Virus record (IMG/VR): IMGVR_UViG_3300027759_000110
Location: 1-56,727 of that record
Strand: one strand, 5' to 3'
Source: a virus
Lineage: Duplodnaviria; Caudoviricetes
DNA length: 56,727 nucleotides
Each line of letters starts with the position of its first letter. Position 1 is the stretch's first letter. The translations under genes and the position numbers were made by a program. Positions 7,343 through 56,250 of this stretch are shown piece after piece. Under the pieces are notes generated by a model. That model was not told where the DNA came from and did not search any database. It saw only the letters and a program-made list of their open reading frames with translations.

Positions 7343-7645
7343 ATGTCAGTAACTTGGAAAATCTCAACCCTTGATCGTGACGTAGCAACAGGCTATGTAA
7401 CTACCGCCCATTGGACAGCATCAGCAGTAGACGGAGATCACTCTGCCTCTGCCTATGCAACAGTCTCATGGCCTGAAGGCACTCCTGCCATTCCTTACGC
7501 ATCCCTCACAGAAGCCACAGTCCTTAATTGGGTGTGGGAATCTGTTGACAAGGAAGCTACTGAGTCTGCTTTGGCGGCTCAGATTGCTTTGCTGAAGAAT
7601 CCTGTAAAAGCCTCTGGCACACCTTGGGCAACACCAATAGTTTAA
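7343..7645 (+). CDS. Tail fibre-associated small protein
   Basis: 100 aa directly after the fibre; IPYASLTEATVLNWVW...GTPW pattern common downstream of phage fibres. Confidence 0.55.
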   Translation: MSVTWKISTLDRDVATGYVTTAHWTASAVDGDHSASAYATVSWPEGTPAIPYASLTEATVLNWVWESVDKEATESALAAQIALLKNPVKASGTPWATPIV

Positions 7646-7660
7646 ACAGGAAGCTGCCAC

Positions 7661-8350
7661 ATGACTGCCTTTTATGTTTATGAACATACCCGTAAAGATA
7701 CGGGGGCGGTCTTTTATGTTGGCAAAGGTCATGGTAAACGGCATTGCTCTAAACTCAACAGAAACCAATATTGGCATAATGTTGTGAACAAAGCTGGAGG
7801 ATTTGATTCCCGTGTTGTTTACGAAGACCAGTCTGAAGAATTAATATTGCTTGCTGAAATAGAGAAAATTAACCAGTTGCGGATGCTAGGTGTAACTCTT
7901 GTTAACTTGACTGATGGCGGTCAGGGCATCACAGGATTAAAACACTCAGAGGAAAGCAAACGGTTAATGAGCCAAAAGCTCAAGGGCAAAAGCCACAAGC
8001 ACACGCCTGAGTCAATTGAAAAAATTAGGCAAGCAAATACGGGTGTTGTTTTTTCTGATGAACGTAAAGAGAAGTTGCGGCAAAAGGCTTTAGGCAGAAA
8101 GATGCTACCTCATGTAAGAGAAGCTCTTAAGCAAAGAATGAAGTCTTTTAAACAATCAGAAGAAACCAAAGAGCATTTGAGGCAAGTAAACCTTGGTCGC
8201 AAACATACGCCAGAAACTTTAATAAAAATGAGTGCATGGCAAAAAGATAGACCAAAGTTAATTTGCCCACATTGCAACAAGGCCGCTAACGTTAACATGG
8301 CTAAACGTTGGCATTTTAATAACTGTAAACTGAAAGAACAAAATGGCTAA
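7661..8350 (+). CDS. GIY-YIG-type homing endonuclease with NUMOD3 repeats
   Basis: FYVYEH...FYVGKG...LVNLTDGGQG catalytic domain; repeated KHSEESKRLMS / KHTPESIEKIR / KHTPETLIKMS NUMOD3 motifs; C-terminal CPHC. Confidence 0.85.
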   Translation: MTAFYVYEHTRKDTGAVFYVGKGHGKRHCSKLNRNQYWHNVVNKAGGFDSRVVYEDQSEELILLAEIEKINQLRMLGVTLVNLTDGGQGITGLKHSEESKRLMSQKLKGKSHKHTPESIEKIRQANTGVVFSDERKEKLRQKALGRKMLPHVREALKQRMKSFKQSEETKEHLRQVNLGRKHTPETLIKMSAWQKDRPKLICPHCNKAANVNMAKRWHFNNCKLKEQNG

Positions 8351-8570
8351 AGACACGAAAAATGCCGTTTCAATCGACGGGCAAGAATATCCAGTAGATG
8401 ATTTAACGCCGCAACAGCAAGCCCTGCTTTCGCACGTTGCCGACTTAGATCGTAAATTAGACTCTGCCCGATTTTCTGTAGATCAGCTCTCAGTGGGAAG
8501 AAACGCCTTCTTTGAGTTACTCAAGCAAGCACTGGCAAAGCCTGAAGAGGCTGTGTCGGACGTAGAGTAA
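8343..8570 (+). CDS. Hypothetical protein (coiled coil, fibre-region)
   Basis: 75-aa ORF, VSIDGQEYPVDDLTPQQQ pattern typical after phage fibre genes. Confidence 0.55.
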   Translation: MAKDTKNAVSIDGQEYPVDDLTPQQQALLSHVADLDRKLDSARFSVDQLSVGRNAFFELLKQALAKPEEAVSDVE

Positions 8571-8590
8571 CCGGAGAACGCTTATGAACT

Positions 8591-8875
8591 ATGCGCTTGT
8601 TTTTTGTATTACTCATCTGCGTTGTTTTTTGGGCGAGTGCAAAGAGCTTGTGCATAGTTTCGGATTTTTATGGGCTGAGCTGGATAGGTGAACCAACCCT
8701 GCGCCACACGGAATTGTCCAAGTGGCTGACAGTAAACGGTGATTCATGTGGCTCACAAGAGTTGGCTGGAATTTGGAACAACCTGTCTATGTGGGCAGGG
8801 GTTGCAGATAGCGCAGAGTTAAGGGCAAAGGTACTGTATTACTACGCAAGGGCGCGAGAAAGGGAAGGAAAATGA
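8591..8875 (+). CDS. Hypothetical secreted/membrane protein
   Basis: Hydrophobic signal-like N-terminus; ATGA overlap with the next gene. Confidence 0.5.
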   Translation: MRLFFVLLICVVFWASAKSLCIVSDFYGLSWIGEPTLRHTELSKWLTVNGDSCGSQELAGIWNNLSMWAGVADSAELRAKVLYYYARAREREGK

Positions 8876-9108
8876 TTGAAACAATTAAGCTTTTCCCGAC
8901 AGTGCAAGCGTCAGGGTATCCCGACAAGCACGATCTTGCCCAAGCCAAACTAGAAAAACAACAACAAGTAAACAAAACGCTTGAGGTGGCTAAGCAAAAG
9001 CAGACGGAATTACAAGACATTGGGTTTGAGATTTACTGCAAGAAGGTAGTTCAAGAGCGGCTCCGCATGGAGATATTCACAAATCGTAAGCTGGATATTT
9101 ATGTATGA
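8872..9108 (+). CDS. Hypothetical protein
   Basis: 78-aa ORF with ATGA overlaps on both sides. Confidence 0.5.
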   Translation: MIETIKLFPTVQASGYPDKHDLAQAKLEKQQQVNKTLEVAKQKQTELQDIGFEIYCKKVVQERLRMEIFTNRKLDIYV

Positions 9109-9368
9109 CCAAGAAACCACCACAACCCGACACGAAAGAAAAGCTGACGTTATACGTCACTCTGATGGTAAGCACGACATTGTGCATCTCTGTTTTGGGC
9201 ATGGTATTTGCCTTTCTCCTTGGTTTGTGGGCCAAGGAAGTGGACAACGCAGAGATATTCAAGATGATTTCACCCGCTTTTTCTACTCTTATCGGCGGCA
9301 TGATTGGGTTCCTGTCTGGTATCAAACTCATGCAGAATGAAGACACTAAACCAAAGGATCCCAAATGA
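9105..9368 (+). CDS. Two-TM membrane protein in the lysis cassette
   Basis: Two hydrophobic helices; translationally coupled to the holin. Confidence 0.55.
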   Translation: MTKKPPQPDTKEKLTLYVTLMVSTTLCISVLGMVFAFLLGLWAKEVDNAEIFKMISPAFSTLIGGMIGFLSGIKLMQNEDTKPKDPK

Positions 9369-9778
9369 TCGGTCTAGACGCAATCCTTAATATTGGCGGT
9401 AAGCTCATTGACAAGCTTATACCGGATCCTGAAGCCAAGGCGCGGGCGCAACTGGAGCTTACCAAGCTGGCGCAGGACGGTGAACTAACTAAGATGGCCA
9501 ACGAAACTAAACTGTATGAGACTGAGCAGAACAATCTGACCCAGCGCGTTCAGGCCGACATGGGCAGTGATTCATGGCTGTCTAAGAACATCCGCCCCAT
9601 GACGCTGATCTTCCTGCTTGTAGCCTATTCCGGCTTTGCCATTGCCTCTATATTTGAATACGAAACACGTGGTGCATACGTGGAATTGCTTGGGACTTGG
9701 GGCATGGTGGTAATGAGTTTTTATTTTGGAGGCCGTACCGCTGAAAAAATGATGGACAAGTTTGGGAATAAGAAATGA
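9365..9778 (+). CDS. Holin (3TM / GTA-holin-like)
   Basis: GKLIDKLIPDPEAK...DSWLSKNIRP...FYFGGRT motifs with two C-terminal TM segments; adjacent to the endolysin. Confidence 0.75.
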   Translation: MIGLDAILNIGGKLIDKLIPDPEAKARAQLELTKLAQDGELTKMANETKLYETEQNNLTQRVQADMGSDSWLSKNIRPMTLIFLLVAYSGFAIASIFEYETRGAYVELLGTWGMVVMSFYFGGRTAEKMMDKFGNKK

Positions 9779-10212
9779 ACCTCACACCACACTTTACGCT
9801 TGATGAACTTACCGCCTCAGAAGCCGCAGAGCGCAACGGATGGGACAACACCCCAAATGAAGCAGAACTTGCCAACCTCAAACGCCTTGCCGCCTTCCTT
9901 GAGGAGGTCAAAACTGTACTGGGCGGACGACCAATTATGGTTAACTCAGCTTTTCGCAATAAGCAAGTCAATGACTCTGTGGGCAGTAAAGATAGCTCTC
10001 AGCATCGCACTGGTTGTGCTGTGGACATCCGAGTACCTCAACTAACTCCCGATCAGGTGGTTAAAGCCATCATTGAGTCTGGGCTTCCCTATGACCAAGT
10101 CATACGTGAGTTTGATCGCTGGACGCATTTAAGCATTCCAAACACGCCAGATGCAGCTCCAAGAAAGCAAGCGTTAGTGATTGATAAATTGGGCACACGG
10201 CTTTATGCTTGA
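9775..10212 (+). CDS. Endolysin, peptidase M15A family
   Basis: MNLTPHFTLDELTAS start; NSAFR, SQHRTGCAVD and WTHLS zinc-ligand motifs. Confidence 0.88.
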   Translation: MNLTPHFTLDELTASEAAERNGWDNTPNEAELANLKRLAAFLEEVKTVLGGRPIMVNSAFRNKQVNDSVGSKDSSQHRTGCAVDIRVPQLTPDQVVKAIIESGLPYDQVIREFDRWTHLSIPNTPDAAPRKQALVIDKLGTRLYA

Positions 10213-10242
10213 TGCATCCCTAAATTGATGGGAAAATAAGCC

Positions 10243-12384
10243 ATGCCATTAAAGAAACTTCAGCAAAAAGCCGGTGTAAACAGGGAAAATACTCGATATA
10301 CATCGGAGAACGGTTACTACGTTTCCGATAAGATCCGTTTCCGCCAAGGAACGCCAGAGAAAATTGGTGGTTGGCAACGCATTTCCTCTGCTATTTTCCA
10401 AGGTGTTTGCCGTTCTTTGTGGAACTGGGTAACTCTAGGCGGTCAGAACTTGCTGGCAATTGGAACTAACCTGAAGTTTTATATTGAAAACGGCGGTCTA
10501 TACTACGACATTACCCCCTTGCGCTCGGCTACAGCGGCTCCTGTATCACTAAACAATCCATTTGACACTACATCTGGGTCAGCTGTTATTAACGTAAATG
10601 ACACTGCTCACGGCTTACTCACCGGTGATATTGCTACCTTTTCTGGAGCTGTTGCGGTTGGCGGGATTTCAGCGGAAATCCTTAATACCAATCACAGCAT
10701 AACGTTTGTTGGAGTTGATGATTACACAATTACTGTGTCTGTTACAGCATCTTCCACTGTGACTGGCGGGGGCGGCGCATCTGTTTCAGCAACATACACA
10801 GAGCTTAGAGTTGCACTGACAAACCCATTTGCTACAGTTAATGGGTCTACAACGGTCACTGTGACTGACGCAGCTGGTGGGTATACCAATGGCGACTTTG
10901 TTACATTCAGTGGTGCTACGACCGTTGGCGGCCTTAATTTAAACGCTGAATATCAGATCACTATTGCAGGTACATCTACCACGCAGTACACAATTACCGC
11001 TTCAAGCGCGGCTACTTCTACTGCTACGGGTGGCGGATCCGCTGTGGTGGCCGCTTATCAACTTAACGTCGGTGCTCCTTATGCGCTTCCTTTGGTTGGT
11101 TGGGGCGCAGGCCCATGGGGTTCTGGGCCTTGGGGTATTGGTGTTGAATCTAATGACCAGATGCGCATTTGGTCACAGGCTAACTTTGGTGAAGACTTAC
11201 TCTTTGCACCCAACGGTGGTGAGATCTACGTCTGGACTGTTAGCTCTTTAGTAACTTCCCGTGGTGTGGCTATTAACACTTTACCGGGAGCCTCTTTCTG
11301 TCCAACAGTTCAAAATTCTATTTTGGTGTCTGATGCTTCACGTTTTACGTTTGCGTTTGGTTGTAACGACTACGGAAGTACCACTCAAAACCCCATGTTA
11401 ATTCGCTGGTCTGACCAAGAGGATTACTTGGAGTGGTTTCCTGCGGCAACAAATCAGGCTGGTAGCTTACAGCTATCCCACGGCTCAAAGATTGTTACTG
11501 CGGTTCAGACCCGGCAGGAGATTGTTGTATTTACAGACTCAGCTCTGTATTCGGTGCAGTATCAAGGGCCACCAGCAGTATGGGGTTCTCAGTTGCTGGG
11601 AGACAACATCTCTATTGCTGGAACAAACGCCGCCGCTACTGCCACAGGTGTAGTGTATTGGATGGGTATTGATAAGTTCTACAAATATGATGGTCGTATA
11701 CAAACTTTACGTTGTGACTTGCGTCAGTTTGTTTTCCAAGACATTAACTTAGATCAATCTGACCAATTCTTTGCCTCTACCAACGAAGGCTTTAATGAGA
11801 TTTGGTTCTTCTACTGTTCAGCAGGTTCATTTGAAGTTGATAGATATGTAACGTACAACTACCTAGAAGATGTCTGGGCGTATGGAACCATGGGTAGGAC
11901 GGCGTGGATTGATTCCGCTTTGCGCAAATACCCAATGGCGGCAACTTACACCTACAACATTGTTTACCATGAGCAAGGTAATGACAACAATGAAACCGGA
12001 ACACCTTTACCAATTAACGCAATCATTGAGACAACCGAGTTTGACATTGATGACGGCGATCACTTTGGGTTTGTCTGGCGTATTGTTCCTGACATTACCT
12101 TCCGTGGATCTGATGCCGCATCCCCACAAGTCACCATGACTTTAATCCCAATGCAGAACTCTGGCTCTGGCTATAACGACCCAATCTCTTTAGGTGGAAA
12201 TTCAGACGCTACAGTGGTTAGAACGGCAACGGTTCCAATTGAGGAATTTACTGGTCAAGTTTATGTAAGGGTTCGTGGTCGTCAGATGATTATGAAAGTA
12301 GAGTCAAATCAACTTGGTTGTGCATGGCAACTTGGCTCCCCCCGTATTGACATTAAACAAGATGGACGCAGGGGTAACTCATGA
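10243..12384 (+). CDS. Tail hub / stabilisation protein (P22 gp10 / T7 gp12-like) with two inserted beta-rich (FCCH-like) repeats
   Basis: 713 aa; MPLKKL...KIRFRQGTPEKIGGW; IRWSDQED propeller motif; two NPFxTxxGSxxxxVxD...G...GDxxTFSGA repeats; ends DGRR. Confidence 0.7.
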   Translation: MPLKKLQQKAGVNRENTRYTSENGYYVSDKIRFRQGTPEKIGGWQRISSAIFQGVCRSLWNWVTLGGQNLLAIGTNLKFYIENGGLYYDITPLRSATAAPVSLNNPFDTTSGSAVINVNDTAHGLLTGDIATFSGAVAVGGISAEILNTNHSITFVGVDDYTITVSVTASSTVTGGGGASVSATYTELRVALTNPFATVNGSTTVTVTDAAGGYTNGDFVTFSGATTVGGLNLNAEYQITIAGTSTTQYTITASSAATSTATGGGSAVVAAYQLNVGAPYALPLVGWGAGPWGSGPWGIGVESNDQMRIWSQANFGEDLLFAPNGGEIYVWTVSSLVTSRGVAINTLPGASFCPTVQNSILVSDASRFTFAFGCNDYGSTTQNPMLIRWSDQEDYLEWFPAATNQAGSLQLSHGSKIVTAVQTRQEIVVFTDSALYSVQYQGPPAVWGSQLLGDNISIAGTNAAATATGVVYWMGIDKFYKYDGRIQTLRCDLRQFVFQDINLDQSDQFFASTNEGFNEIWFFYCSAGSFEVDRYVTYNYLEDVWAYGTMGRTAWIDSALRKYPMAATYTYNIVYHEQGNDNNETGTPLPINAIIETTEFDIDDGDHFGFVWRIVPDITFRGSDAASPQVTMTLIPMQNSGSGYNDPISLGGNSDATVVRTATVPIEEFTGQVYVRVRGRQMIMKVESNQLGCAWQLGSPRIDIKQDGRRGNS

Positions 12385-12728
12385 GTTTGATTGTTACGTC
12401 AGAGTTTGAGCTTCAAAGGATTCAACCTCCTGCTTTGCCATTGGCAACAGATGACTACAGCAAGGCTTATCAAGATCAACTAAACAATGTGTTGCGTTTG
12501 TACTTCAACCGCATCCAGAACATTCTTAATCAGTTGGAATCTAATGGGGTTCAGCCGCCACTGACTAACTATACCGTGACCACATTACCCAGTGCAGTCA
12601 CTTCAGGCAAGGGCGCTAGATCTTTTGTTACTGATGCTTTGGCTCCTGCGTTTGGGGCTACCGTTGCAACTGGCGGAGCTGTTGCAGTCCCTGTATATTC
12701 AGACGGAACAAATTGGAAGGTGGGATAA
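12381..12728 (+). CDS. Virion structural protein (tail needle/short fibre-like)
   Basis: PALPLAT...DQLNNVLRLYFN N-terminus; C-terminal VPVYSDGTNWKVG fibre-like motif. Confidence 0.5.
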   Translation: MSLIVTSEFELQRIQPPALPLATDDYSKAYQDQLNNVLRLYFNRIQNILNQLESNGVQPPLTNYTVTTLPSAVTSGKGARSFVTDALAPAFGATVATGGAVAVPVYSDGTNWKVG

Positions 12729-12730
12729 AC

Positions 12731-13114
12731 ATGACTGCAGACGAAATCCTTGAAATAGACGCTCAGCGAAACCATGAACCCGGCACTGAAGCTGGTCATT
12801 TACGCGCCATGATTAATGACCAATTGCGCAAACAAGGACATATTGTCCAACAAGGCGACACGTTGATTGTGTTCTCTAATGCTGATGGCGATGCGGATGT
12901 TGAATATCACTGCTTTAATGCAGATACACCACCAAACTTAGCTGCAAATGTAATGAAGTTCTTTGAGTTAGCTAAGAAGCTTGGTTACAAGACTGCCACC
13001 ACACCTTACGAAAATCCTAAAGTTTCCGAGTTGTTTAAACAATTTGTTGCGAAAAGATACAAGGTTGACATTAAGCGCAAGGATGGCCGATATGAAGCGA
13101 AAGCGAGGCTGTAA
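12731..13114 (+). CDS. Hypothetical protein
   Basis: Probable start ATG 12731; TAATG coupling to the next gene. Confidence 0.5.
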   Translation: MTADEILEIDAQRNHEPGTEAGHLRAMINDQLRKQGHIVQQGDTLIVFSNADGDADVEYHCFNADTPPNLAANVMKFFELAKKLGYKTATTPYENPKVSELFKQFVAKRYKVDIKRKDGRYEAKARL

Positions 13115-14481
13115 TGGGATTTGTTAGAAAAATTGGTCGTAAGATTGACAAAGAAATTCTCCAGCCTATCAAGCATACGGTTGAAGCGGTACTTGATGAC
13201 CCCAGAAAGTTAGCTATGGTGGCGCTCTCGGTCTTTGCACCGGGTGTTGGTACTGCTATTGGTAGCGCCATGGGCCTTAGTGGTACTGCGGCGGCAATCA
13301 TAGGCAATACAGCAGTCAATACGGTTCTAAATGGCGGAGATGTTAAGTCGGCAATCTTTGCCGCAGCCATTCCTGTTGTAGGTCGAGAGATGGCTGGCCT
13401 TGCCTCTAATGCATTTATTGATGCTGGCATGGATAAAGCTCTTGCTGATACTGCCGGTAACGTAACTTCTCGTGGTTTACTGGCCGCAGCACAAGGAAAA
13501 GATCCAGTTAACGCTCTTATTTCTGGTGGTTTAAACGCCGGAACAGACGCAGTTCTTAACCAAATACCGGGGTTTGAAGACTTAGATCCATCTATAAAGA
13601 AGATGACTACCCGCGCAGTGGCTAATACATTGGTTGGAAACAATGCGCTATCACCGCAGGATGCCATCAATGCCGCACTAAACATTGGTATGAAGGCTGT
13701 AGATCGGACTACGGATGAAGAAGGTAACTACATTGAGAATTACTTCCGTCCGGGTGGTGCTGGGTATATTGACCCAGAGAACCTAGAGGCAACGGTCAAG
13801 CAGGACGAAGGCGATGGCGGGTTCATGAGTCAGTTTAAGTCGTATTTGCCTCAAACCCCCGCTGAATTTCTTGCTGTTGAAAACCCAACACCAGCACCAT
13901 CTGAGCCTCCAGTAGAGCAACCAATGCCAAGTCCAGATGATGACTTTGCCCCAACATTGCCTTCAGTAGAACAGCCGATGCCAAGTCCGGATGATGACTT
14001 TGTGCCAACGGTTCCACCTTCTGAGGGTGGTGGTGAAAACGTATTTGATCCCACGTTTGGTGGAACACTTCCTTTACCCACTGGTGGGGATGGAACTCCC
14101 GGCGGTGCTTCTAAATCGCCCACTAGAACAACTCCCGGAGCTAAGCCCGCCATCCCCGGTGCAAAGACGGGTGCTACTGGAAACCCTGCGGTTGATGCCA
14201 TTACCAATTTAGCCAACCAACAGCAACAATACCAAAACTCTGTGTTAAACATGATGATGAATGACAAGAATGAGGTTGCTAATATAAAATCATTCAAAGA
14301 TCTTTATGGTGGGGATTTGTTTGGCGGAAGCTATGTGCCGCCTTCTGCGCTTGGTATGCCTGCTGGAGGCAATGTAATGATGCCCCAACAAAATCAAGAT
14401 GAACAAGATAATGATTTTTTTGATGGTGGTCACGTAGATGATATTGACGTTGACGTTTTACTACGAATTTTGAGGAGTTGA
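13114..14481 (+). CDS. Internal virion/ejection-like protein
   Basis: Basic MGFVRKIGRK start, hydrophobic Gly/Ala segment (FAPGVGTAIG), Pro/acidic low-complexity C-half. Confidence 0.5.
   Translation: MGFVRKIGRKIDKEILQPIKHTVEAVLDDPRKLAMVALSVFAPGVGTAIGSAMGLSGTAAAIIGNTAVNTVLNGGDVKSAIFAAAIPVVGREMAGLASNAFIDAGMDKALADTAGNVTSRGLLAAAQGKDPVNALISGGLNAGTDAVLNQIPGFEDLDPSIKKMTTRAVANTLVGNNALSPQDAINAALNIGMKAVDRTTDEEGNYIENYFRPGGAGYIDPENLEATVKQDEGDGGFMSQFKSYLPQTPAEFLAVENPTPAPSEPPVEQPMPSPDDDFAPTLPSVEQPMPSPDDDFVPTVPPSEGGGENVFDPTFGGTLPLPTGGDGTPGGASKSPTRTTPGAKPAIPGAKTGATGNPAVDAITNLANQQQQYQNSVLNMMMNDKNEVANIKSFKDLYGGDLFGGSYVPPSALGMPAGGNVMMPQQNQDEQDNDFFDGGHVDDIDVDVLLRILRS
13912..14001 (+). repeat. Tandem coding repeat VEQPMPSPDDDF (54-nt period, 2 copies)
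   Basis: Copies start at 13912 and 13966 and differ at synonymous positions. Confidence 0.85.
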
Positions 14482-16799
14482 TGATGGCAACAAAATATGG
14501 TTCAGAGGGCGGAGTCGAGATTCCTGACTCAATGCTAGTGGGGTATGGCGGCACAGCAGAGAACGGTTATATCTCTCCCGGCGGTAATGAAAGCGTATTT
14601 GACCCCACTTACGGCGGCTCAATGCCAATTACAAATACCGGCGGCGCTACTAATAATAGATCTGATATTACCAATGCTATCAACAACCTTTTTGGAAGCA
14701 ATTTATCTGGAGCAGAGTTAGCAAAACGAGCCGCTGTTCTTGGTGGTGGTTTGGCTGGTGGCCTTGGCGCATTCTCCTCTGGAACGCAGAAAGTTGGATA
14801 TCAAGGTGGTATTCCAAAGTTCACAGCTAATCGTGAAATGACAAAAGCTCCTCCCGCTGGTAGCCGTCCCGGTGCTGGTGGTGTTAATTATGGTGGTGAT
14901 GTTACTTACACTCCAACTGGTGTATCTTCTGGTGGATCGTCTGGTGGCGGATCTTCCGGCGGTGGCTCTGCTTTAGGAGACATAGCAAAAGTAGCTGGCG
15001 GTGCTGGCTTGGCCGCTTTACTTGCTAACTATCTTGGTAAATCTGGTGGTGCATCTGGTGGTTTAGATGCTATTTTGAAAGCCATTAGAAATCCTTCTTC
15101 TGGTAACGTACCAGTAAGAAATCAAGGTGGCGACACTCGTGGCGAATTAACTACACCCGGGGGTGACTACGCGGGCAGAGATGAATTTGATGGAATTGAT
15201 GCTCAAATTATAGCCAATGAAAATGATCTTCAATCGCCACCCCTGTTAAACGACACAGAAGTTGATGCTGAGCTTGATCGTCTTCGTGAACCAGAGTACA
15301 CAATGCCAATGTATATAGAAGAATCTCCGATGTTTAACCCTTCATTCTACGAAGACCTACTTGAGTACGCTAAGGGTGGCAGCGTACCACGCTATTTACA
15401 AGGGGAGACTGACGGTATGGCTGACAAAATCCCAGCCCGTATTGGAAAAGACCAACCTGCCGCGCTTAGCCATGGTGAGTTTGTTGTCCCTGCGGATGTT
15501 GTGTCTCATCTTGGTAACGGTAACTCTGATGCCGGAGCCAAGAAGCTGTACAGCATGATGGACAAGATCCGTCAAGCTCGTACCGGCACAAAGAAACAAG
15601 GCAAAAAGATCAACCCCGACAGCTTTATGCCCGGTGGTTTGGCTTCTGCTTATGCCAATGGTGGCTCAGTTATGAAATTTGCAGGCCCAACAGGAAGTTT
15701 AGTCCCTTCTGGTTCAACAGGATCAGAGCAAACACTTGCAAGCTGGACTGGTGACTATGTGCCTAATATGCTTGGTAAAGCTGAAGCTTTGGCTAGTGCT
15801 CCATACCAACAGTATGGCGGCCCATTATCGGCTGGTGCATCTGGCCTTCAACAGCAAGCATTCCAAGCTGCGGGTAATCTGTCCGTTCCTAGCAGTGTGG
15901 GTCAAGCCACGCAAACCGCTGGTGACATTGCCGCTAAAGCACAGGGCATTAGCTACGATCCAACCAAGTTTGATAATCAGTTTAAAGCACCTGATAAGTA
16001 TCAAAACACCAACTTTACTTCTGGCACTTTTGGTCAAGATCAAGCTCAGCAGTACATGAATCCGTACTTGCAAGCTTCTTTGAATCCTCAGTTGGAAGAA
16101 GCCCGTCGCCAGTCAAACATTAGTGAGCAGGCAAATAAAGCCGCAATGACCAAGGCCGGTGCGTTTGGTGGTGGCCGTAGTGCCATTTTGACCGCAGAGA
16201 ACCAACGTAATCTTGGAACTAACCTTGCCGGTATTACTGGCAAGGGCTACGACACTGCGTATACCAATGCTATGGGTCAGTTCAATGCTGACCAAGCCCG
16301 TAATATGCAAGCACAGCAGGCATCTGAACAGTCTAAGCAGTTTGGTGCTGGTCAGGGCATGACTTCCGCACAACAAGCCGCTCAGTACGGTCAGGCCGCT
16401 CAACAAGCCTCCGAGCAATCCAAACAGTTTGGTGCAAACTTGGGTCTGCAAGGTCTTCAGACTGGTCTTCAAGCCGCTAAAACTCAAGGTGATTTAGGTA
16501 TTTCTGGTGGTCAATTGGGCTTGGCTCAGCTACAACAACAGTCTGCTCTGGGTGCTCAACAGCGTGGCATTGAAGCTGAAGGTATTGCCGCAGACAAGGC
16601 CGCATTTGAAGAAGCTCGTGCAAACCCATACAAGATGCTTCAGTTTCAGCAGTCTATGCTTCAGGGCTTGCCAATTTCTGCAACCAACTACTCTATGCCT
16701 GAGCAAGATGCTCTTACAAAGGCGGCTGGTGGTGCAACGACTGTGAATAAGTTATTGGAAACTTTGGGACTTGGAGGGTCTACACCCCCAAAGAAGTGA
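14478..16799 (+). CDS. Multi-module ejection/pilot-like protein
   Basis: 773 aa; GETDGMADKIPA...LSHGEFVVPADVV module; C-terminal QQYMNPY...AGAFGGGRS gp7-like Q/G/A-rich domain. Confidence 0.6.
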   Translation: MMMATKYGSEGGVEIPDSMLVGYGGTAENGYISPGGNESVFDPTYGGSMPITNTGGATNNRSDITNAINNLFGSNLSGAELAKRAAVLGGGLAGGLGAFSSGTQKVGYQGGIPKFTANREMTKAPPAGSRPGAGGVNYGGDVTYTPTGVSSGGSSGGGSSGGGSALGDIAKVAGGAGLAALLANYLGKSGGASGGLDAILKAIRNPSSGNVPVRNQGGDTRGELTTPGGDYAGRDEFDGIDAQIIANENDLQSPPLLNDTEVDAELDRLREPEYTMPMYIEESPMFNPSFYEDLLEYAKGGSVPRYLQGETDGMADKIPARIGKDQPAALSHGEFVVPADVVSHLGNGNSDAGAKKLYSMMDKIRQARTGTKKQGKKINPDSFMPGGLASAYANGGSVMKFAGPTGSLVPSGSTGSEQTLASWTGDYVPNMLGKAEALASAPYQQYGGPLSAGASGLQQQAFQAAGNLSVPSSVGQATQTAGDIAAKAQGISYDPTKFDNQFKAPDKYQNTNFTSGTFGQDQAQQYMNPYLQASLNPQLEEARRQSNISEQANKAAMTKAGAFGGGRSAILTAENQRNLGTNLAGITGKGYDTAYTNAMGQFNADQARNMQAQQASEQSKQFGAGQGMTSAQQAAQYGQAAQQASEQSKQFGANLGLQGLQTGLQAAKTQGDLGISGGQLGLAQLQQQSALGAQQRGIEAEGIAADKAAFEEARANPYKMLQFQQSMLQGLPISATNYSMPEQDALTKAAGGATTVNKLLETLGLGGSTPPKK

Positions 16800-17617
16800 C
16801 CCCCTCCAATTCTTCGGATTCTGGCGGGGGCCCTAGTTTAGGTGGTGGATTGGCGGCGGCGGCTGTGGCCGCGCCGTTTATGGCATCGGCGTTTAGTACT
16901 CCAGACCCACAACCTCAAGCCCCAGCTACGCCTGTGTCAATGTATTCACCTGAGCCTCCAGCTCCTGCGCCAGTTCCAGATGCGCCTGCTCAACCAAGGT
17001 CGGCGTATGATCCTCCGCCGCCTCCACCTCCGCCGCCACCTCCTCCTCCGCCACCTCCTGCGCCAGTGGCTCCACCTCCTCCAGAGCAAGAAATGGAGAT
17101 GTACCAAACAGGTATTGAGGGCGAGAGTCAGTTAGCAACTTATGGTTACAGACCAAAAGCTCCTGTAGCACCACCACCACCACTTGCACCTCCATCGGGT
17201 TCCGCTGCATCTGGGTACAAAGGCCCAGCTAGATTAAATTCTTCTAGGGGTCTGGGTGACATGTTCTGGGAAGGTGAATTTGATTTTTCAGGCATTGATT
17301 TGCCGCCTGTTCCCGAAGCTCCTCCTCCTCCTGCGCCTACTCCAACTCCTCCTCCACAACAAGAGATGGAAATGTATGAGACAGGTATTGAGGGTGAGAG
17401 CCAAATCCCAACTTATAGCTATAGGCCAAAGGCTCCCGTAAATACAAAAGATAGGCTCCGTGAAATGGAGACTGGAAATTATAATAACCCAAACCTTGGT
17501 TTAGGTATACCCAGAATCGGTGGCGGCCAATCTAGAAATGATAGACGCGCATACGCAGCATACGCCAATGGCGGATTAGTCGATCTTCTCCGTAGACACA
17601 TGCAGAAATATCAATAA
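16796..17617 (+). CDS. Pro-rich low-complexity protein carrying two MEMY[QE]TGIEGESQ repeats
   Basis: GTGA overlap with the upstream stop; 16-Pro run; ends with YANGG motif like its neighbours. Confidence 0.55.
   Translation: MTPSNSSDSGGGPSLGGGLAAAAVAAPFMASAFSTPDPQPQAPATPVSMYSPEPPAPAPVPDAPAQPRSAYDPPPPPPPPPPPPPPPPAPVAPPPPEQEMEMYQTGIEGESQLATYGYRPKAPVAPPPPLAPPSGSAASGYKGPARLNSSRGLGDMFWEGEFDFSGIDLPPVPEAPPPPAPTPTPPPQQEMEMYETGIEGESQIPTYSYRPKAPVNTKDRLREMETGNYNNPNLGLGIPRIGGGQSRNDRRAYAAYANGGLVDLLRRHMQKYQ
17093..17434 (+). repeat. MEMY[QE]TGIEGESQ..TY[GS]YRP peptide repeat, copies 3-4 (starts 17093 and 17366)
   Basis: 17093-17155 matches 153-215 at 59 of 63 nt. Confidence 0.9.
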
Positions 17618-17646
17618 AATGAGCAAAGTTATTAGAAGGAATCATC

Positions 17647-40368: not shown

Positions 40369-40373
40369 CAGCA

Positions 40374-45214: not shown

Positions 45215-45826
45215 TTAAATTAATCCGAGAACATCGCCCTCATTGGGGCAGAGGGGCAAGTTCAAATTGCCCTGTTTAAACGCCCACTTGGCAGTGAGCC
45301 TGACTGTGTACCCGCATGAGGGGCACACACATTTCAGCATCCGTGTCCCTTGCTTTTTGCCAACCGAGGCAGATAATTCTGCGTGGACATAAGCACCGAG
45401 CGAGTCGATGATCTGTTGGTAGGCGGCAACGAATGCACCGCCATGTGTGACCGATTTGTATCGGGCTGACTGAGTGCCGTTGGGCAACAAGTGCATGGCA
45501 TCTGCCACTTTTTGGTAGGGCTTGCCGTGGTTCAATGCACCCTTGGCGGTGTGGCACAACATGGCAACAAGGGTCTCAAAGACCTTGACGGGGTCAGCCA
45601 GTACAGGGCTGATGAAAATTTCAAAGTGTGCGTCAGCACTGTTGGTATTGGGGAAGCACTCGCCAACCGACTTGAAGTTGGTGCGTTTAGCGTTGGACGG
45701 GAGGGCACAGGAAACCCGAACTTTGTCAGTGATTGACACGCCATTGGACAGGAAAAAGGGACGCAGTTCATCGACTGCCGCAGTGAGCCAGTCTTCACGG
45801 GTAAGGTGTTTGATAGGTAAGGTCAT
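45215..45826 (-). CDS. SprT-like protein with degenerate HExxH and C-terminal zinc ribbon
   Basis: GEC...EIFISP...TLVAMLCH...HGKPY; KQGTRMLKCVCPSCGYTVR..W...LPLCP. Confidence 0.6.
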   Translation of the reverse strand: MTLPIKHLTREDWLTAAVDELRPFFLSNGVSITDKVRVSCALPSNAKRTNFKSVGECFPNTNSADAHFEIFISPVLADPVKVFETLVAMLCHTAKGALNHGKPYQKVADAMHLLPNGTQSARYKSVTHGGAFVAAYQQIIDSLGAYVHAELSASVGKKQGTRMLKCVCPSCGYTVRLTAKWAFKQGNLNLPLCPNEGDVLGLI

Positions 45827-47235: not shown

Positions 47236-47308
47236 TACGAACAGTGCGTTTCCCTGCGTTGGTGATGGGGAAAGTTGGTAGATGCTAACAAATATGGAGT
47301 GTTTAAAC

Positions 47309-47977
47309 ATGACGAAGACAAGCAAGGCTGAGTACAAGGCGGAGTTGGATCAGGCACTGGACGAAGTGGATGAGTGGGCGGGTGATGAAGGCCACGCAGA
47401 ACTGAGCGAAGCGGAACAGTATGCCCATGCCGCAGAGAGACCTAAGCTAAGAAAGGATGGAGAACATAAAGGGTCAGACATAAAGAGACCAAAGCCTCTA
47501 AGCCCACGTCAAGTACTGTTCACACAGGGAGTGATACAGGGTAAAAGCCTAAGGCAAGCTTACAGGGATGCCTATGCCAACGACACAGGATCAGATGCTT
47601 CTATTAGTGCATCCGCGAACAAACTGATGAATGATCCAAGGATCAAGCACATACTAAAAGAAGCTTGGGAAGAGACGGCAGAACACCTCAGTGAAGACCT
47701 TGCCGCAAGCAAGAGATACGTATTGAAAGGACTGTTGGCACTAAGCAAGAAGGCCAAGCAAGAGGGTACTAAATTAAAAGCACTGGAACTGCTAGGCAAA
47801 GCGGCAGGGTTGTTCACCCCGACAGAGGTGCAAGACAAAGCAGTGATCACCGCAGATCAATTGAAGAGAGAACTCGCAGGGCACATGAAACTATTAGAGA
47901 GTGCCAAGGCCAACGTGCTTGACGTAGACATGAAGAGTTTAAACAGTGCTATGCCTATAGCCGAGCAGGGCGTTTAA
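47309..47977 (+). CDS. terS: Terminase small subunit
   Basis: LSPRQVLF...AYRDAY...ASANKLMNDPRI...KALELLGKAAGLF; upstream of TerL; start at ATG 47309 (GGAG RBS). Confidence 0.8.
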   Translation: MTKTSKAEYKAELDQALDEVDEWAGDEGHAELSEAEQYAHAAERPKLRKDGEHKGSDIKRPKPLSPRQVLFTQGVIQGKSLRQAYRDAYANDTGSDASISASANKLMNDPRIKHILKEAWEETAEHLSEDLAASKRYVLKGLLALSKKAKQEGTKLKALELLGKAAGLFTPTEVQDKAVITADQLKRELAGHMKLLESAKANVLDVDMKSLNSAMPIAEQGV

Positions 47978-47984
47978 ACATCGG

Positions 47985-48165
47985 CATACTCGTACCCCCA
48001 CCCGTACCCGACCCCCACTTGGCACGAGCCGACACCCCTCCTGCGTATACGCTCTAATCCACTCTTCCAAAACATGTTCCCCACTCTTCCAAAACATATC
48101 CATAGAACACCCCCCCTTCCTTTTCCATTTCAGACCCCCCGGGGGTATATATATTTTTTAAAAAA
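47985..48165. repeat. C-rich/palindromic intergenic block, candidate packaging (pac/terminus) site
   Basis: CCACTCTTCCAAAACAT direct repeat at 48059 and 48081; CGTACCC twice; ACCCCCCGGGGGT-ATATATA-TTTTTTAAAAAA stacked palindromes, between terS and terL. Confidence 0.4.
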
Positions 48166-48169
48166 GGTC

Positions 48170-48198
48170 TTGCGAACGTTCGTATTTGCGTTTAAACT
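48170..48198 (+). promoter_or_regulatory. Sigma70-like promoter with palindromic operator candidate
   Basis: TTGCGA-17 bp-TAAACT; CGAACGTTCG palindrome at 48173-48182; GTTTAAAC overlaps the -10. Confidence 0.5.
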
Positions 48199-54627: not shown

Positions 54628-54644
54628 ACTTTTTGGAGTCTTAA

Positions 54645-55259
54645 ATGGCATATCCTACCGTTGATAAGACGTATGGTTTCAAGCCAGTCAACCGACTGGA
54701 CGGACTACCCTACGCCGGAGCGATCCGTCAAATCCCAATCGCACCTTCCTATGCAACAGCAATTCTGAACGGTGATACCGTTAAGGTAGACACTAACGGC
54801 TACATCGTAGCTGCTAGTACTACTGATTCAGGCGCAATTGTTGGCGTTTTGGTTGGTTGTTCTTACATCAACTCTTTGAGTCAGCCTACGTTCGCACAGA
54901 ACTATCCAGCTGCTACTTCAACTTCAACAAACATGGCTTTGGCTTTTGTTGTGGATGATCCTAGTGCTGCGTTCCGTGTTGTTGCTACAGTTGCTGGTTC
55001 CACCACTCCTACGGCTTATTCCCGTGCTTTGGTTGGTTCTAACGTCGCTTTGGTTGCTAACACTGGTTCTACTACCACTGGTGATTCGTATTATGGTATT
55101 GACGGTTCTTCCGCCAACACCACCAATACATTGCCTATTCGCGTGATTGATGTCATTCCTGACACAGCCACAGGCCCTGCAACAACTGCCGCTACAACTT
55201 ACTATGAATTCATTGTTAAGTTCAACACCGCGCAGTACAACAACACCACTGGTGTTTAA
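54645..55259 (+). CDS. Capsid decoration / minor head protein
   Basis: YGFKPV...ILNGDTV...VVDDP; T/S/A-rich beta protein just upstream of the major capsid gene. Confidence 0.6.
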   Translation: MAYPTVDKTYGFKPVNRLDGLPYAGAIRQIPIAPSYATAILNGDTVKVDTNGYIVAASTTDSGAIVGVLVGCSYINSLSQPTFAQNYPAATSTSTNMALAFVVDDPSAAFRVVATVAGSTTPTAYSRALVGSNVALVANTGSTTTGDSYYGIDGSSANTTNTLPIRVIDVIPDTATGPATTAATTYYEFIVKFNTAQYNNTTGV

Positions 55260-55272
55260 GGAGTAACTTACC

Positions 55273-56181
55273 ATGGCTATTTCACGCGCACAGCTACTTA
55301 AAGAGTTGCTCCCCGGTCTGAATGCATTGTTCGGTCTTGAGTACGCCAAATACGGCGAAGAGCACAAAGAGATCTACGAAACAGAGACATCTGAGCGTAG
55401 CTTTGAAGAAGAGACAAAACTGTCTGGTTTCTCTGCCGCTCCTGTCAAAAACGAGGGTTCTGCCATCGCTTATGACAATGCACAGGAAGCATGGACTGCA
55501 CGTTACACCCACGAAACCATTGCGATGGGCTTTTCCATCACAGAGGAAGCTGTGGAAGATAACTTGTATGACAGCCTGTCTTCACGTTATACCAAGGCTT
55601 TGGCCCGTGGTATGGCTTACACCAAGCAAGTTAAAGCCGCTTATGTGTTGAACAACGCCTTTACTGGCGGCCCAACATACGGCGACGGCGTGGTGCTTTG
55701 CTCTACTGCTCACCCCTTGGTTTCTGGTGGTACTAACAGCAATACACCTTCTACCGCTGCTGACTTGAACGAAACATCGTTGGAAAACGCTGTTATTCAG
55801 ATCGCTGGCTGGACAGATGAGCGTAGTTTGCTGATCGCCGCTAAGCCTAAGAAGCTGGTTGTTCCTCCTTCTTTGATGTTCGTTGCTACTCGTCTGCTGG
55901 AAACCGAACTCCGTGTTTCTACTGCTGACAATGATATCAACGCATTGAAGAACAATGGCTCAATCCCTGAAGGCTATACCGTAAACCACTTCTTGACAGA
56001 CACCAATGCTTGGTTCCTGTTGACAGATGTGCCTAACGGTTTGAAGCACTTCGTGCGTACCCCCATGTCTACCGGCATGGACGGTGACTTTGACACAGGT
56101 AACGTTCGTTACAAAGCCCGTGAGCGTTACAGCTTCGGCGTGTCAGATCCTTTGGGCATCTTCGGTTCACCCGGAGCCTAA
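55273..56181 (+). CDS. Major capsid protein (HK97 fold, Mu gpT-like family)
   Basis: MAISRAQLLKELLPGLNALFGLEY...KLVVPP...DTNAWFL...YKARERYSFGVSDP; AAGGAG RBS. Confidence 0.9.
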   Translation: MAISRAQLLKELLPGLNALFGLEYAKYGEEHKEIYETETSERSFEEETKLSGFSAAPVKNEGSAIAYDNAQEAWTARYTHETIAMGFSITEEAVEDNLYDSLSSRYTKALARGMAYTKQVKAAYVLNNAFTGGPTYGDGVVLCSTAHPLVSGGTNSNTPSTAADLNETSLENAVIQIAGWTDERSLLIAAKPKKLVVPPSLMFVATRLLETELRVSTADNDINALKNNGSIPEGYTVNHFLTDTNAWFLLTDVPNGLKHFVRTPMSTGMDGDFDTGNVRYKARERYSFGVSDPLGIFGSPGA

Positions 56182-56189
56182 TAGGCATC

Positions 56190-56220
56190 AAAAAAAAGGG
56201 GAGCTTCGGCTCCCTTTTTT
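56190..56220 (+). terminator. Intrinsic (bidirectional) terminator after the major capsid gene
   Basis: A-run-GGGAGC-TTCG-GCTCCC-T-run. Confidence 0.88.
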
Positions 56221-56221
56221 G

Positions 56222-56250
56222 TTGCAATGGTTTAAACGTAGTGGTATAAA
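56222..56250 (+). promoter_or_regulatory. Sigma70-like promoter
   Basis: TTGCAA-17 bp-TATAAA with TG extension; GTTTAAAC in the spacer. Confidence 0.6.

What the first reader, a model, noticed from the sequence alone, without database searches (positions are those of the whole stretch)
7640..56237. Highly iterated palindrome GTTTAAAC: at least 52 copies, about 1 expected
Seen: GTTTAAAC at 7640, 13033, 13529, 20689, 20881, 20960, 20980, 22138, 22619, 22990, 24491, 25042, 25235, 26042, 26468, 26929, 28552, 28840, 28962, 29233, 29488, 29860, 31168, 31796, 33432, 35615, 35670, 35701, 37886, 37904, 39250, 40046, 40103, 40356, 40396, 40437, 41196, 42046, 42642, 43208, 43723, 44745, 45274, 47301, 47937, 47972, 48190, 49549, 50069, 51507, 53434, 56230 (manual count). 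A rough mononucleotide model at about 45% GC gives about 1 copy. Sites fall in different reading frames (F-K-x, x-L-N, V-stop), in intergenic clusters, between the terS RBS and its ATG, and inside two promoter candidates. The one-mismatch variant GTGTAAAC/GTTTACAC also recurs. Established: phages usually avoid palindromes because of restriction; the known parallel is cyanobacterial HIP1. Inference: a genome-wide cis-acting mark bound by a dimeric phage or host protein (DNA coating/condensation, self-recognition against a phage nuclease, or recombination signal). No methyltransferase is evident in the window. Candidate readers are the two ARxxDPxTS wHTH paralogues, the LexA-like wHTH and the RHH/HTH proteins.
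Basis: partly seen in the sequence, partly recalled or inferred. Interest (0 to 1): 0.9.

Follow-up and report, generated by a model that had tools for sequence, protein, structure and literature searches.

The report
Phage 8-mer tied to zinc-ribbon protein
The 52 copies of GTTTAAAC in this freshwater phage are real and selected, and the same 8-letter word (or GTGTAAAC) recurs in unrelated phages of very different bacteria only when they carry one small zinc-ribbon protein, usually fused to a SprT-like protease, which is therefore the likely reader of the word.

Summary
Confirmed. GTTTAAAC occurs 52 times at exactly the listed places (about 1 expected). Inside genes it survives an amino-acid- and codon-preserving shuffle (37 against 4.4±1.7). 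It is positionally conserved in relatives (68% against 26% for background 8-mers).

The window is a whole 56.7-kb freshwater phage. Across otherwise unrelated phages, enrichment tracks one gene, window 45215-45826(-). This is a SprT/Wss1-like zincin with a C-terminal Zn ribbon.
- All 13 motif-selected enriched contigs tested whole have at least the ribbon. None of 4 non-enriched contigs does.
- 78 of 80 gene-selected loci are enriched.
- Cultured phages of cyanobacteria, alpha- and beta-proteobacteria show GTTTAAAC; actinophages show GTGTAAAC.
- Five Streptomyces phages without the gene have none. Two phages with the zincin but no Cys ribbon have 0-1 sites. One lineage has the ribbon alone and is enriched.
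- One bacterial family tested as a possible host is not enriched.

The catalytic HExxH is lost in the window's protein, and its loss does not change site density.

Best reading (about 0.6): the ribbon is a sequence-specific DNA reader that docks on dispersed sites. What docking achieves is unknown. The readers the first stage proposed are not supported. I found no description of this in the literature.

The parts
7640..56237 (.). 52 exact copies of GTTTAAAC. Starts: 7640, 13033, 13529, 20689, 20881, 20960, 20980, 22138, 22619, 22990, 24491, 25042, 25235, 26042, 26468, 26929, 28552, 28840, 28962, 29233, 29488, 29860, 31168, 31796, 33432, 35615, 35670, 35701, 37886, 37904, 39250, 40046, 40103, 40356, 40396, 40437, 41196, 42046, 42642, 43208, 43723, 44745, 45274, 47301, 47937, 47972, 48190, 49549, 50069, 51507, 53434, 56230.
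   Evidence: positions; shuffle mean 1.11. (codon shuffle). (positional conservation in relatives).
45215..45826 (-). Gene for P0001 (203 aa), a SprT/Wss1-like zincin domain plus a C-terminal Zn ribbon. It is the candidate reader of the motif. AMLCH stands where relatives have HELCH, so the catalytic Glu and first His are lost.
   Evidence: phrog_6361; alignments; only protein shared by 7 enriched genomes; AF2 mean pLDDT 90.9; SPRTN 6mdx Z 7.4, 4jiu Z 7.3, Wss1 Z 7.2.
45218..45379 (-). The part of the gene that encodes residues 150-203, the Zn ribbon: a conserved K-Q-x-T-R-h-h-K stretch, a Cys knuckle, G-Y-x-V-R, K-W and a second Cys knuckle. This is the module that tracks motif enrichment.
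   Evidence: invariant R162, C168, C171, R176; nearly invariant C193, W181. (homologues without Cys ribbon: 0-1 sites). (ribbon-only protein in enriched contigs)..
45274..45281 (.). A motif copy inside the ribbon-coding part of the gene itself. It is present in 13 of 25 aligned relatives.
35615..35708 (.). Cluster of 3 copies in and next to the divergent intergenic region between the leftward early block and the rightward HTH gene (35766-36287).
40046..40444 (.). Cluster of 5 copies in the non-coding stretch after the primase-helicase gene (38370-40043). It contains the triple that was used as a search pattern.
47301..47308 (.). Copy that fills the spacer between the GGAG ribosome-binding site and the ATG (47309) of the terS-like gene. 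Conserved in 47 of 52 aligned relatives.
   Evidence: (phrog_51 terminase small subunit).
47937..48197 (.). Three copies at and after the end of the terS-like gene. The TAA of the copy at 47972 is that gene's stop codon. The copy at 48190 is conserved in 70 of 71 relatives.
7640..7647 (.). Copy whose TAA is the stop codon of ORF 7343-7645. It sits just before the RBS of the homing-endonuclease-like gene 7661-8350.
19419..28478 (+). Giant 3019-aa ORF (a polyvalent protein) that carries 13 copies. All lie in the two reading frames that avoid a stop.
1..20688 (.). Low-density arc, continuing from 56238 across the record's ends. It holds tail and structural genes and only 3 copies in about 21 kb. 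The syntenic part of relative G006 is also sparse (7 copies in its last 18 kb).

Best explanation
GTTTAAAC, with GTGTAAAC as a tolerated variant, is the cognate DNA site of a small phage-encoded Zn-ribbon module. In this phage that module is the C-terminal domain of the SprT/Wss1-like protein encoded at 45215-45826(-).

Shown:
- The word is held at about 1 per kb by selection on the DNA itself. It sits in synonymous positions, stop codons, RBS-ATG spacers and intergenic DNA.
- Across phages of at least four host phyla, enrichment appears with this module and disappears without it.

Inferred:
- The ribbon binds double-stranded DNA at the word, in either orientation and probably as a monomer, so the protein is docked at many places along the phage chromosome.
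- In relatives with an intact HExxH, docking would station a DNA-dependent protease at intervals on phage DNA. There it could cut proteins sitting on that DNA, such as host silencers, defence enzymes or crosslinked proteins.
- In the window's clade the catalytic residues are lost. Here the protein can only bind, and the clusters of sites at gene-block boundaries (35.6, 40.0-40.4 and 47.9-48.2 kb) suggest use as operators or roadblocks.

Confidence by step: the gene-motif link about 0.9; direct binding by the ribbon about 0.6; the protease-sentinel function about 0.25.
For: 1. Reality and selection. 52 copies against 1.1 expected. Codon shuffle 37 against 4.4. 18 of 28 aligned sites are exact in G006, against 20% of background 8-mers. 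502 of 738 site-by-relative comparisons are exact, against 26% background. All 80 terL-related loci are enriched: 615 copies against 12.3 expected in 722 kb.

2. From motif to gene. Contigs were found only by a triple-motif pattern. All 13 enriched ones tested whole carry the module: G009 and G010; G011, G013, G014 and G015 full-length, and G012 ribbon-only; G021-G025; G017. None of the 4 non-enriched ones does (G016, G018, G019, G020). Within the fetched pieces, 24 of 51 loci with 0.8 or more sites per kb hold the ribbon, against 1 of 16 at 0.5-0.8 and 0 of 33 below 0.5.

3. From gene to motif. 73 of 80 loci with a homologue (34-97% identity) carry GTTTAAAC. 5 of the other 7 carry GTGTAAAC at O/E 18-99 where it was scored.

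4. Cultured phages.
- Pan1: 16 copies against 0.3 expected.
- Mica: 7 against 0.19.
- Floof: 16 GTGTAAAC/GTTTACAC against 0.32. In Pan1, Mica and Floof this is the top O/E 8-mer.
- Counts of the pattern GTKTAMAC: R26L 21, Lizalica 24, Crosby 41.

5. It is the only protein cluster shared by 7 enriched genomes. No other cluster is found in more than 3.

6. Domain-level controls.
- CN1 and Epa5 keep the HExxH zincin but have no Cys ribbon, and have 1 and 0 sites.
- A stand-alone ribbon of about 60 aa occurs in enriched contigs.
- HExxH is present in 55 distinct proteins (median 1.25 sites per kb) and absent in 49 (median 1.43).

7. Host-matched control. Five Streptomyces phages without the gene have 0 of the three enriched words in 237 kb, against 41 in Crosby.

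8. A site lies 16-81 nt upstream of the gene in Mica, ep3, Lizalica, Floof and Pan1. By my arithmetic about 0.24 such cases were expected over the 7 phages.

9. Fold. SPRTN, proabylysin and Wss1 are the top matches. The ribbon resembles the DNA-contacting MCM Zn finger.
Against: - No binding was measured. Everything rests on co-occurrence.
- The window itself has no site within 1.4 kb upstream of the gene.
- L385 and L390 carry a homologue but none of the words in about 10 kb each. ep3 has only 4 copies.
- G018 and G019 lack the gene yet have 9 and 11 copies, in small operator-like clusters.
- Near-identical ribbons go with different variants (the L367 clade with GTGTAAAC, the P0112 clade with GTTTAAAC). 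I saw no residue that explains the T/G choice; this was by eye, not a formal test.
- Spacing is even in the cultured high-GC phages but clustered in the window and G010, so one single function may not fit all.
- Related contigs are not independent observations.
- The fold matches are moderate (Z below 8; Foldseek E about 0.1).
Confidence: 0.6

Rival explanations
1. Something else reads the word: a small fast-evolving phage protein that BLAST cannot link, or a conserved host protein. The SprT-like/ribbon protein then co-occurs because it acts on that complex, for example as a protease that removes a protein bound or trapped at the sites.
For: - The family is built on a DNA-dependent protease fold.
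- In actinophages an HTH 'DNA binding protein' lies just upstream of it (passages of preprint 10.1101/2025.05.26.655371 read).
- Small HTH proteins could escape the blastp clustering.
Against: - About half of the distinct proteins have lost HExxH with no drop in site density.
- One enriched lineage has the ribbon alone.
- Homologues with the zincin but no Cys ribbon have 0-1 sites.
- The hosts span several phyla, so a host reader would need a conserved 8-bp specificity. The bacterial genomes tested are not enriched.
Confidence: 0.2
2. The word is a replication signal: dispersed priming or loading sites. The ribbon serves as a primase-like zinc-binding specificity module.
For: - Spacing is even, at 1.3-4.5 kb, in Crosby, R26L, Pan1, Floof, Mica and Lizalica (CV 0.36-0.63; P from below 0.0002 to 0.023).
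- The gene usually lies in the replication/recombination module, near SSB or polymerase genes.
- The ribbon resembles Zn fingers of replication proteins.
Against: - The enriched phages share no polymerase, primase or helicase.
- The asymmetric word shows no strand bias or switch in Crosby: by my count from the sites listed, 20 against 21 (Lizalica 17 against 7).
- The window's sites are clustered, with a 21-kb arc nearly empty.
- No known primase needs an exact 8-mer (my recollection, from no call).
Confidence: 0.08
3. A HIP1-like phenomenon. The word would be made or kept by a modification or repair bias, or be the target of a DNA modification, not a protein docking site.
For: - It is an 8-bp palindrome at about 1 per kb, in all usable frames.
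- One-mismatch neighbours are mostly at background.
- The rest of the genome shows extreme palindrome avoidance, so restriction pressure is strong.
Against: - No methyltransferase or Vsr-like gene was found among the ORFs scanned.
- No such gene is shared by enriched phages.
- Hosts are not enriched.
- Actinophages use a non-palindromic word.
- Individual sites are conserved in position, and in six phages evenly spaced. That points to selection on sites, not to a mutational drive.
Confidence: 0.05
4. An artefact of composition, codon usage, peptide repeats or assembly, or a host signature.
For: None found. Markov models of order 4-6 give higher expectations, but only because they are trained on the motif's own sub-words.
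Against: (shuffles). (random flanks). Open reading frames run through the sites. The same enrichment is seen in independently sequenced cultured phages. It is absent from bacterial genomes and from host-matched phages.
Confidence: 0.02

Closest known systems
Stoperators of cluster A mycobacteriophages (L5 repressor gp71 and its 13-bp sites). Recalled, not from a call.
   Same: A phage-encoded DNA-binding protein with tens of short cognate sites spread over the whole phage genome, many of them in the tiny gaps between genes.
   Different: Stoperators are asymmetric, keep one orientation relative to transcription, lie mostly between genes and are read by an HTH repressor within one phage cluster. 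Here the word is 8 bp, sits in either orientation (Crosby 20 against 21, my count) and is mostly inside genes (39 of 52). It goes with a Zn ribbon that is often fused to a protease, and is conserved across phages of several host phyla.
HIP1 (GCGATCGC) of cyanobacteria. The link to methyltransferases is recalled, not from a call.
   Same: An 8-bp palindrome at about one per kb, in coding and non-coding DNA and in several frames.
   Different: HIP1 is a property of host chromosomes and goes with cognate methyltransferases. Here the bacterial genomes tested are not enriched, no methyltransferase was found, and the word follows a phage gene.
SPRTN / Wss1 / bacterial SprT (Pfam PF10263 with a Zn ribbon)
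   Same: The same zincin fold plus a C-terminal Zn-binding DNA-contact module. Relatives keep HExxH. These proteases are DNA-dependent (passages of the preprint read; otherwise recalled).
   Different: No sequence-specific docking site is known for SPRTN or Wss1. The window's protein has lost the catalytic Glu and His and does not reach the Pfam threshold.
ArdC-type antirestriction proteins of plasmids (DNA-binding domain plus metalloprotease). Recalled, not from a call. One Bordetella phage homologue is annotated 'antirestriction protein'.
   Same: A mobile-element protein that joins DNA binding to a zincin protease and acts for the incoming DNA.
   Different: ArdC binds single-stranded DNA without a known sequence word and has a different domain order. 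No homology was tested here.
Multi-operator global regulators and site families such as KorB operators, ParB-parS and Noc-binding sites. Recalled, not from a call.
   Same: Short, often palindromic sites repeated over a replicon and read by one protein.
   Different: Those are HTH proteins with 10-16-bp sites at far lower density. None is fused to a protease or shared across phyla of phage hosts.

Membership tests
SprT-like / Wss1 zincins (PF10263) | Zincin (minigluzincin-like) fold of the N-terminal domain | tested here: met
   AF2 model mean pLDDT 90.9. VIA-align: 6mdx SPRTN Z 7.4, 4jiu Z 7.3, Wss1 5xbn Z 7.2 over residues 2-140. Foldseek top hits 4jiu, selecase and Wss1 at probability about 0.9 but E about 0.1. 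The scores are moderate.
SprT-like / Wss1 zincins (PF10263) | Catalytic HExxH motif | tested here: not met
   P0001 has AMLCH where relatives have HELCH. 55 distinct relatives keep HExxH and 49 lack it.
SprT-like / Wss1 zincins (PF10263) | Pfam gathering score for PF10263 | tested here: not met
   P0001 has no SprT-like hit even at E <= 1. The G010 homologue passes (28.8 bits against a cut-off of 25.6). P0112 is below the cut-off (17.5). P0001 is thus a degenerate homologue of members.
SprT-like / Wss1 zincins (PF10263) | C-terminal Zn ribbon | tested here: met
   Cys knuckles at 166/168/171 and 193. Strands 163-167 and 174-178 in the model. Ribbon-like matches at Z 3.6. The Atlas gives only a weak lead to Zn_ribbon_SprT (score 0.77).
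SprT-like / Wss1 zincins (PF10263) | DNA-dependent protease activity | not testable with these tools
   Needs biochemistry. Not expected for P0001 itself, because the catalytic Glu is absent.
HIP1-type highly iterated palindromes | 8-bp palindrome at about 1 per kb in coding and non-coding DNA | tested here: met
HIP1-type highly iterated palindromes | Enrichment in the cellular (host) chromosome | tested here: not met
   5 bacterial genomes: counts at or below control except one at parity (86 against 81). 16 genomes of one family: 15-106 copies per 0.9-4.2 Mb, against 9-195 for the control word. The window's own host is unknown.
HIP1-type highly iterated palindromes | Cognate methyltransferase (feature recalled) | tested here: not met
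   No methyltransferase among the ORFs scanned, and none shared by enriched phages. Many small ORFs were not scanned.
Stoperator-type repressor sites | One orientation relative to transcription (feature recalled) | tested here: not met
   By my count of the sites listed: Crosby 20 GTTTACAC against 21 GTGTAAAC on a genome read almost entirely rightward; Lizalica 17 against 7. Floof 10 against 6.
Stoperator-type repressor sites | Read by the phage's immunity repressor | not testable with these tools
   No integrase or repressor was identified in the window. Some carriers are temperate (Floof, Lizalica, Mica). Others show no integrase in the parts I read.
Chi / DNA uptake sequences | Strand-oriented word that is also enriched in the host genome | tested here: not met
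   The word is a palindrome or orientation-neutral. Bacterial genomes are not enriched.

The most novel reading that the evidence does not exclude
A cross-phylum phage system in which a Zn-ribbon 'address reader' places a SprT-type DNA-dependent protease at evenly spaced 8-bp docking sites written into the phage's own genome. The protease would then patrol the phage chromosome and destroy host proteins that bind or travel along it, such as silencers, restriction or other defence motors.
Probability: 0.22. Interest if true: 0.92.

Novelty: categorically new. Interest (0 to 1): 0.88.

Why it matters
Phages are expected to avoid palindromes. This one lacks 17 six-base palindromes altogether, yet keeps one 8-mer at 50 times expectation.

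The same word, or its one-base variant, is written into phages of cyanobacteria, actinobacteria, alpha- and beta-proteobacteria and uncultured freshwater hosts whenever one small Zn-ribbon module is present. That turns an oddity into a defined gene-site pair. It can be tested tomorrow in harmless hosts (Arthrobacter, Microbacterium, Streptomyces).

If the ribbon reads the word:
- It is a new compact sequence-specific DNA-binding domain.
- It is the first sequence-addressed member of the SPRTN/Wss1 protease family.
- It gives a function to a gene annotated only as 'SprT-like protease' in the 163 phage records that match it.

The word is also a simple marker for recognising such phages in metagenomes.

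Tried and rejected
- Host signature. No locus had more than 11 copies in 8 kb. Of 5 genomes checked whole, none was enriched; in one MAG all 6 copies lay on a single 1.5-kb contig. The window's host remains unknown.
- Hairpin or terminator context. Flank complementarity is at background in the window. Only +/-1 is raised in Pan1, G009 and G010.
- Promoter or RNA signal. Rejected because the asymmetric word occurs in both orientations on one-directional genomes and inside long genes. Many Crosby copies simply fill the 8-10 nt before start codons, a cheap non-coding slot.
- Near-identical phage records: none. terL and the first ORF gave only distant hits.
- Sequencing runs. All 20 holders are kept as contigs from freshwater or lake metagenomes, so read ends, nicks and modification could not be examined. 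None of the 40 variant places shown fell inside a site, but 1598 places were not shown, so this says nothing.
- Foldseek against the PDB gave no match at E <= 0.001.
- The Atlas gave only a weak lead.
- I saw no ribbon residue that explains the T or G variant (by eye only).
- Literature. Five searches found nothing on these words in phages. The AZ-cluster preprint describes the SprT-like gene but no motif (passages read).

Full report
**What the window is**

The window is the whole of a virus record of 56,727 bp at 47% GC. Genes recognised:
- A terS-like gene (47309-47977), terL (48524-50023) and a capsid gene (55273-56181).
- Tail and ejection genes across the record's ends, up to 19.4 kb.
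- A 3019-aa polyvalent protein (19419-28478).
- A leftward early block with a Sak annealing protein and a PD-(D/E)XK nuclease (33.3-35.1 kb).
- A primase-helicase (38370-40043).
- A MoxR ATPase / VWA pair (42.1-45.2 kb).

No phage record in the collection is close at the DNA level. IMG/VR holds 304 stretches encoding terL relatives. The runs that hold parts of the window are freshwater or lake metagenomes.

All 52 listed copies of GTTTAAAC are there, and no others.
- Dinucleotide shuffles give 1.1 copies (maximum 5). Markov orders 0-2 give 1.1-1.3.
- The word is exactly 8 bp with random flanks, and is the commonest 8-mer by a factor of three.
- Inside genes it occurs 37 times, against 4.4 +/- 1.7 after a within-gene synonymous shuffle and 3.2 +/- 1.7 after a pooled one (maximum 9 of 500). 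It occupies 37 of the 54 peptide contexts that could encode it.
- 13 of 52 copies are intergenic (7% expected), and 15 lie within 40 nt of a gene boundary (13% expected). Two supply a stop codon, and one fills an RBS-ATG spacer.
- GTGTAAAC/GTTTACAC is also enriched, 8 + 8 copies.
- The genome otherwise avoids palindromes to an extreme degree: 17 six-base palindromes have no copy where 9-15 are expected.

**Selection on individual sites**

Relative G006 shows 78% nucleotide identity over 25 kb of alignment. In it, 18 of 28 aligned sites are exact, against 20% of background 8-mers.

Over 97 related loci (81% identity), 502 of 738 site-by-locus comparisons are exact, against 26% background. Some sites are nearly universal (48190: 70 of 71; 51507: 70 of 77). 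Others are lineage-specific (49549: 2 of 90). These loci are kin, so the numbers are not independent.

All 80 terL-related loci are enriched: 615 copies against 12.3 expected.

**The lead: one shared gene**

I scanned IMG/VR for three copies of the word close together. This also brought in contigs of quite different GC content (34-55%) with 1-3 copies per kb.

Two of these, read whole, were G009 (62 kb, 35% GC, 46 copies) and G010 (44 kb, 44% GC, 33 copies). With the window they share a single protein by blastp: window 45215-45826(-), called P0001 here.

P0001 has 203 residues, belongs to phrog_6361 and has no Pfam hit. Its relatives carry HExxH and a C-terminal Cys ribbon. Cultured-phage homologues are annotated 'SprT-like protease'. 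The G010 homologue passes Pfam SprT-like.

The AF2 model (pLDDT 90.9) is closest to SPRTN (Z 7.4), proabylysin (7.3) and Wss1 (7.2). Its ribbon resembles MCM Zn fingers. These scores are moderate.

P0001 itself reads AMLCH in place of HELCH, so it cannot be an active protease of this kind.

**Co-occurrence in both directions**

From motif to gene:
- All 13 enriched contigs tested whole have the module. In one of them, G012, it is a stand-alone ribbon of about 60 aa.
- The 4 non-enriched contigs tested lack it. Two of them, G018 and G019, still hold 9-11 copies in small clusters.
- In the fetched pieces alone, the ribbon is present in 24 of 51 loci with 0.8 or more sites per kb, 1 of 16 intermediate loci and 0 of 33 sparse loci.

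From gene to motif:
- 73 of 80 loci with a homologue carry GTTTAAAC.
- 5 of the remaining 7 carry GTGTAAAC instead. Two, L385 and L390, carry nothing.
- Some lineages add ATTTAAAC.

**Cultured phages**

| Phage (host group) | Copies | Expected or note |
|---|---|---|
| Pseudanabaena phage Pan1 | 16 GTTTAAAC | 0.3 expected; top O/E 8-mer |
| Burkholderia phage Mica | 7 GTTTAAAC | 0.19 expected; top O/E 8-mer |
| Microbacterium phage Floof | 16 GTGTAAAC/GTTTACAC | 0.32 expected; top O/E 8-mer |
| Dinoroseobacter phage R26L | 21 | 20 of them GTTTAAAC |
| Arthrobacter phage Lizalica | 24 | all asymmetric |
| Streptomyces phage Crosby | 41 | all asymmetric |
| E. coli phage ep3 | 4 | weak |

In an all-against-all comparison of seven such genomes, the SprT-like protein is the only cluster present in all seven. 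No other cluster is in more than three.

**Controls**

- Bordetella phage CN1 and Pseudomonas phage Epa5 have homologues with HExxH but a cysteine-free C-terminus. Their genomes hold 1 and 0 copies.
- Five Streptomyces phages without the gene, four of them from the same host species as Crosby, hold none of the three enriched words in 237 kb.
- Sixteen genomes of the bacterial family of G001 (a Microbacteriaceae MAG by its record title) show the words at the level of the control word. So do five other bacterial genomes.
- HExxH status makes no difference to density: median 1.25 sites per kb with it (55 distinct proteins) and 1.43 without it (49).

The ribbon, not the protease, is therefore the part that goes with the word.

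**Anatomy of the sites elsewhere**

In the six cultured phages with enough sites, spacing is more even than chance:

| Phage | CV of gaps | P |
|---|---|---|
| R26L | 0.36 | below 0.0002 |
| Crosby | 0.54 | below 0.0002 |
| Floof | 0.49 | 0.001 |
| Pan1 | 0.51 | 0.004 |
| Lizalica | 0.63 | 0.017 |
| Mica | 0.41 | 0.02 |

The window and G010 are clustered instead (CV about 1.5).

The asymmetric word shows no orientation rule. In Crosby several copies sit in the last 8-10 nt before start codons.

A copy lies 16-81 nt upstream of the SprT-like gene in Mica, ep3, Lizalica, Floof and Pan1. I expected about 0.24 such cases over seven phages (my arithmetic). This looks like autoregulation. The window has no such copy, only one inside the gene.

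**Reading**

- Shown: a selected, phage-specific word whose presence follows one Zn-ribbon module across phyla.
- Inferred: the ribbon binds the word on duplex DNA.
- Further inferred: where HExxH is intact, this stations a DNA-dependent protease along the phage chromosome. In the window's clade only binding remains.

The rival readings are another reader, replication priming, a HIP1-like drive, and an artefact. They are weighed in their own sections. None explains the ribbon-only and ribbon-less controls as well.

**What is not settled**

- No binding was measured.
- The function is unknown.
- The residue basis of the T/G choice is unknown.
- The window's host is unknown.
- Two carriers have no sites, and two non-carriers have small clusters.

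Five literature searches found no description of these words in phages. One preprint on AZ-cluster phages discusses the gene without any motif (passages only).

Noticed in passing
whole window; also G006, G009, G010 (L301-L311): Extreme avoidance of six-base palindromes. 17 have no copy in the window where 9-15 are expected, among them GTCGAC, GGTACC, GAGCTC, CTCGAG, GCATGC, TTCGAA and ACTAGT. 8-23 palindromes are at or below 0.1 of expectation in the three other phages, and the sets differ in part (AT-rich ones in the 35% GC phage).
   Followed up: partly
window 19419-28478 (+): The 3019-aa ORF at the end of the structural block is a polyvalent protein. Pfam gives LPD38 (residues 2736-2905), ART-PolyVal (2065-2157) and DUF7178 (best stretch 1069-1147). 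It carries 13 of the 52 motif copies.
   Followed up: partly
window 47144-47196: Three DnaA boxes (TTATCCACA on the minus strand) lie within about 50 bp, in the non-coding stretch upstream of the terS-like gene. DnaA-box words are also among the top O/E 8-mers in related loci L364, L366, L384 and L327. This may be an origin or a DnaA-titrating site.
   Followed up: no
window 1395-17834 and 29099: The E. coli Chi word GCTGGTGG occurs 10 times on the plus strand and once on the minus strand; CTGGTGG occurs 22 against 1. Most copies encode Ala-Gly-Gly. They still exceed a codon shuffle: 9 against 3.8 (3 of 500 shuffles reach it), and 19 against 8.0 (0 of 500). They lie in the very arc that is poor in GTTTAAAC.
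   Followed up: partly
window 42112-45186 (-): A VWA (CobT-like) gene, an unknown 319-aa gene and a MoxR-type AAA ATPase lie directly downstream of the SprT-like gene on the same strand. They are not shared with the other enriched phages.
   Followed up: no
window 7661-8350 (+) and 37873-38373 (+): A homing-endonuclease-like gene (phrog_314) and an endonuclease VII/HNH-like gene (phrog_3322), each with motif copies at its 5' edge. Contigs in three runs skip 37809/37824-38365, and the letters at one junction contain part of the motif. The second gene therefore looks optional among strains.
   Followed up: no
G018 and G019 (whole IMG/VR contigs behind L110 and L134): Two viral contigs without the ribbon gene carry 9 and 11 GTTTAAAC copies in tight groups of 2-3. 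These look like ordinary operator clusters of some other regulator that happens to share the core word.
   Followed up: no
window 56272-56727 and 1-60: The last ORF runs off the 3' end and the first ORF is open at the 5' end, but in different frames. The record has no terminal repeat of 10-199 bp. Its ends are therefore probably not the true genome ends or a clean circular join.
   Followed up: partly
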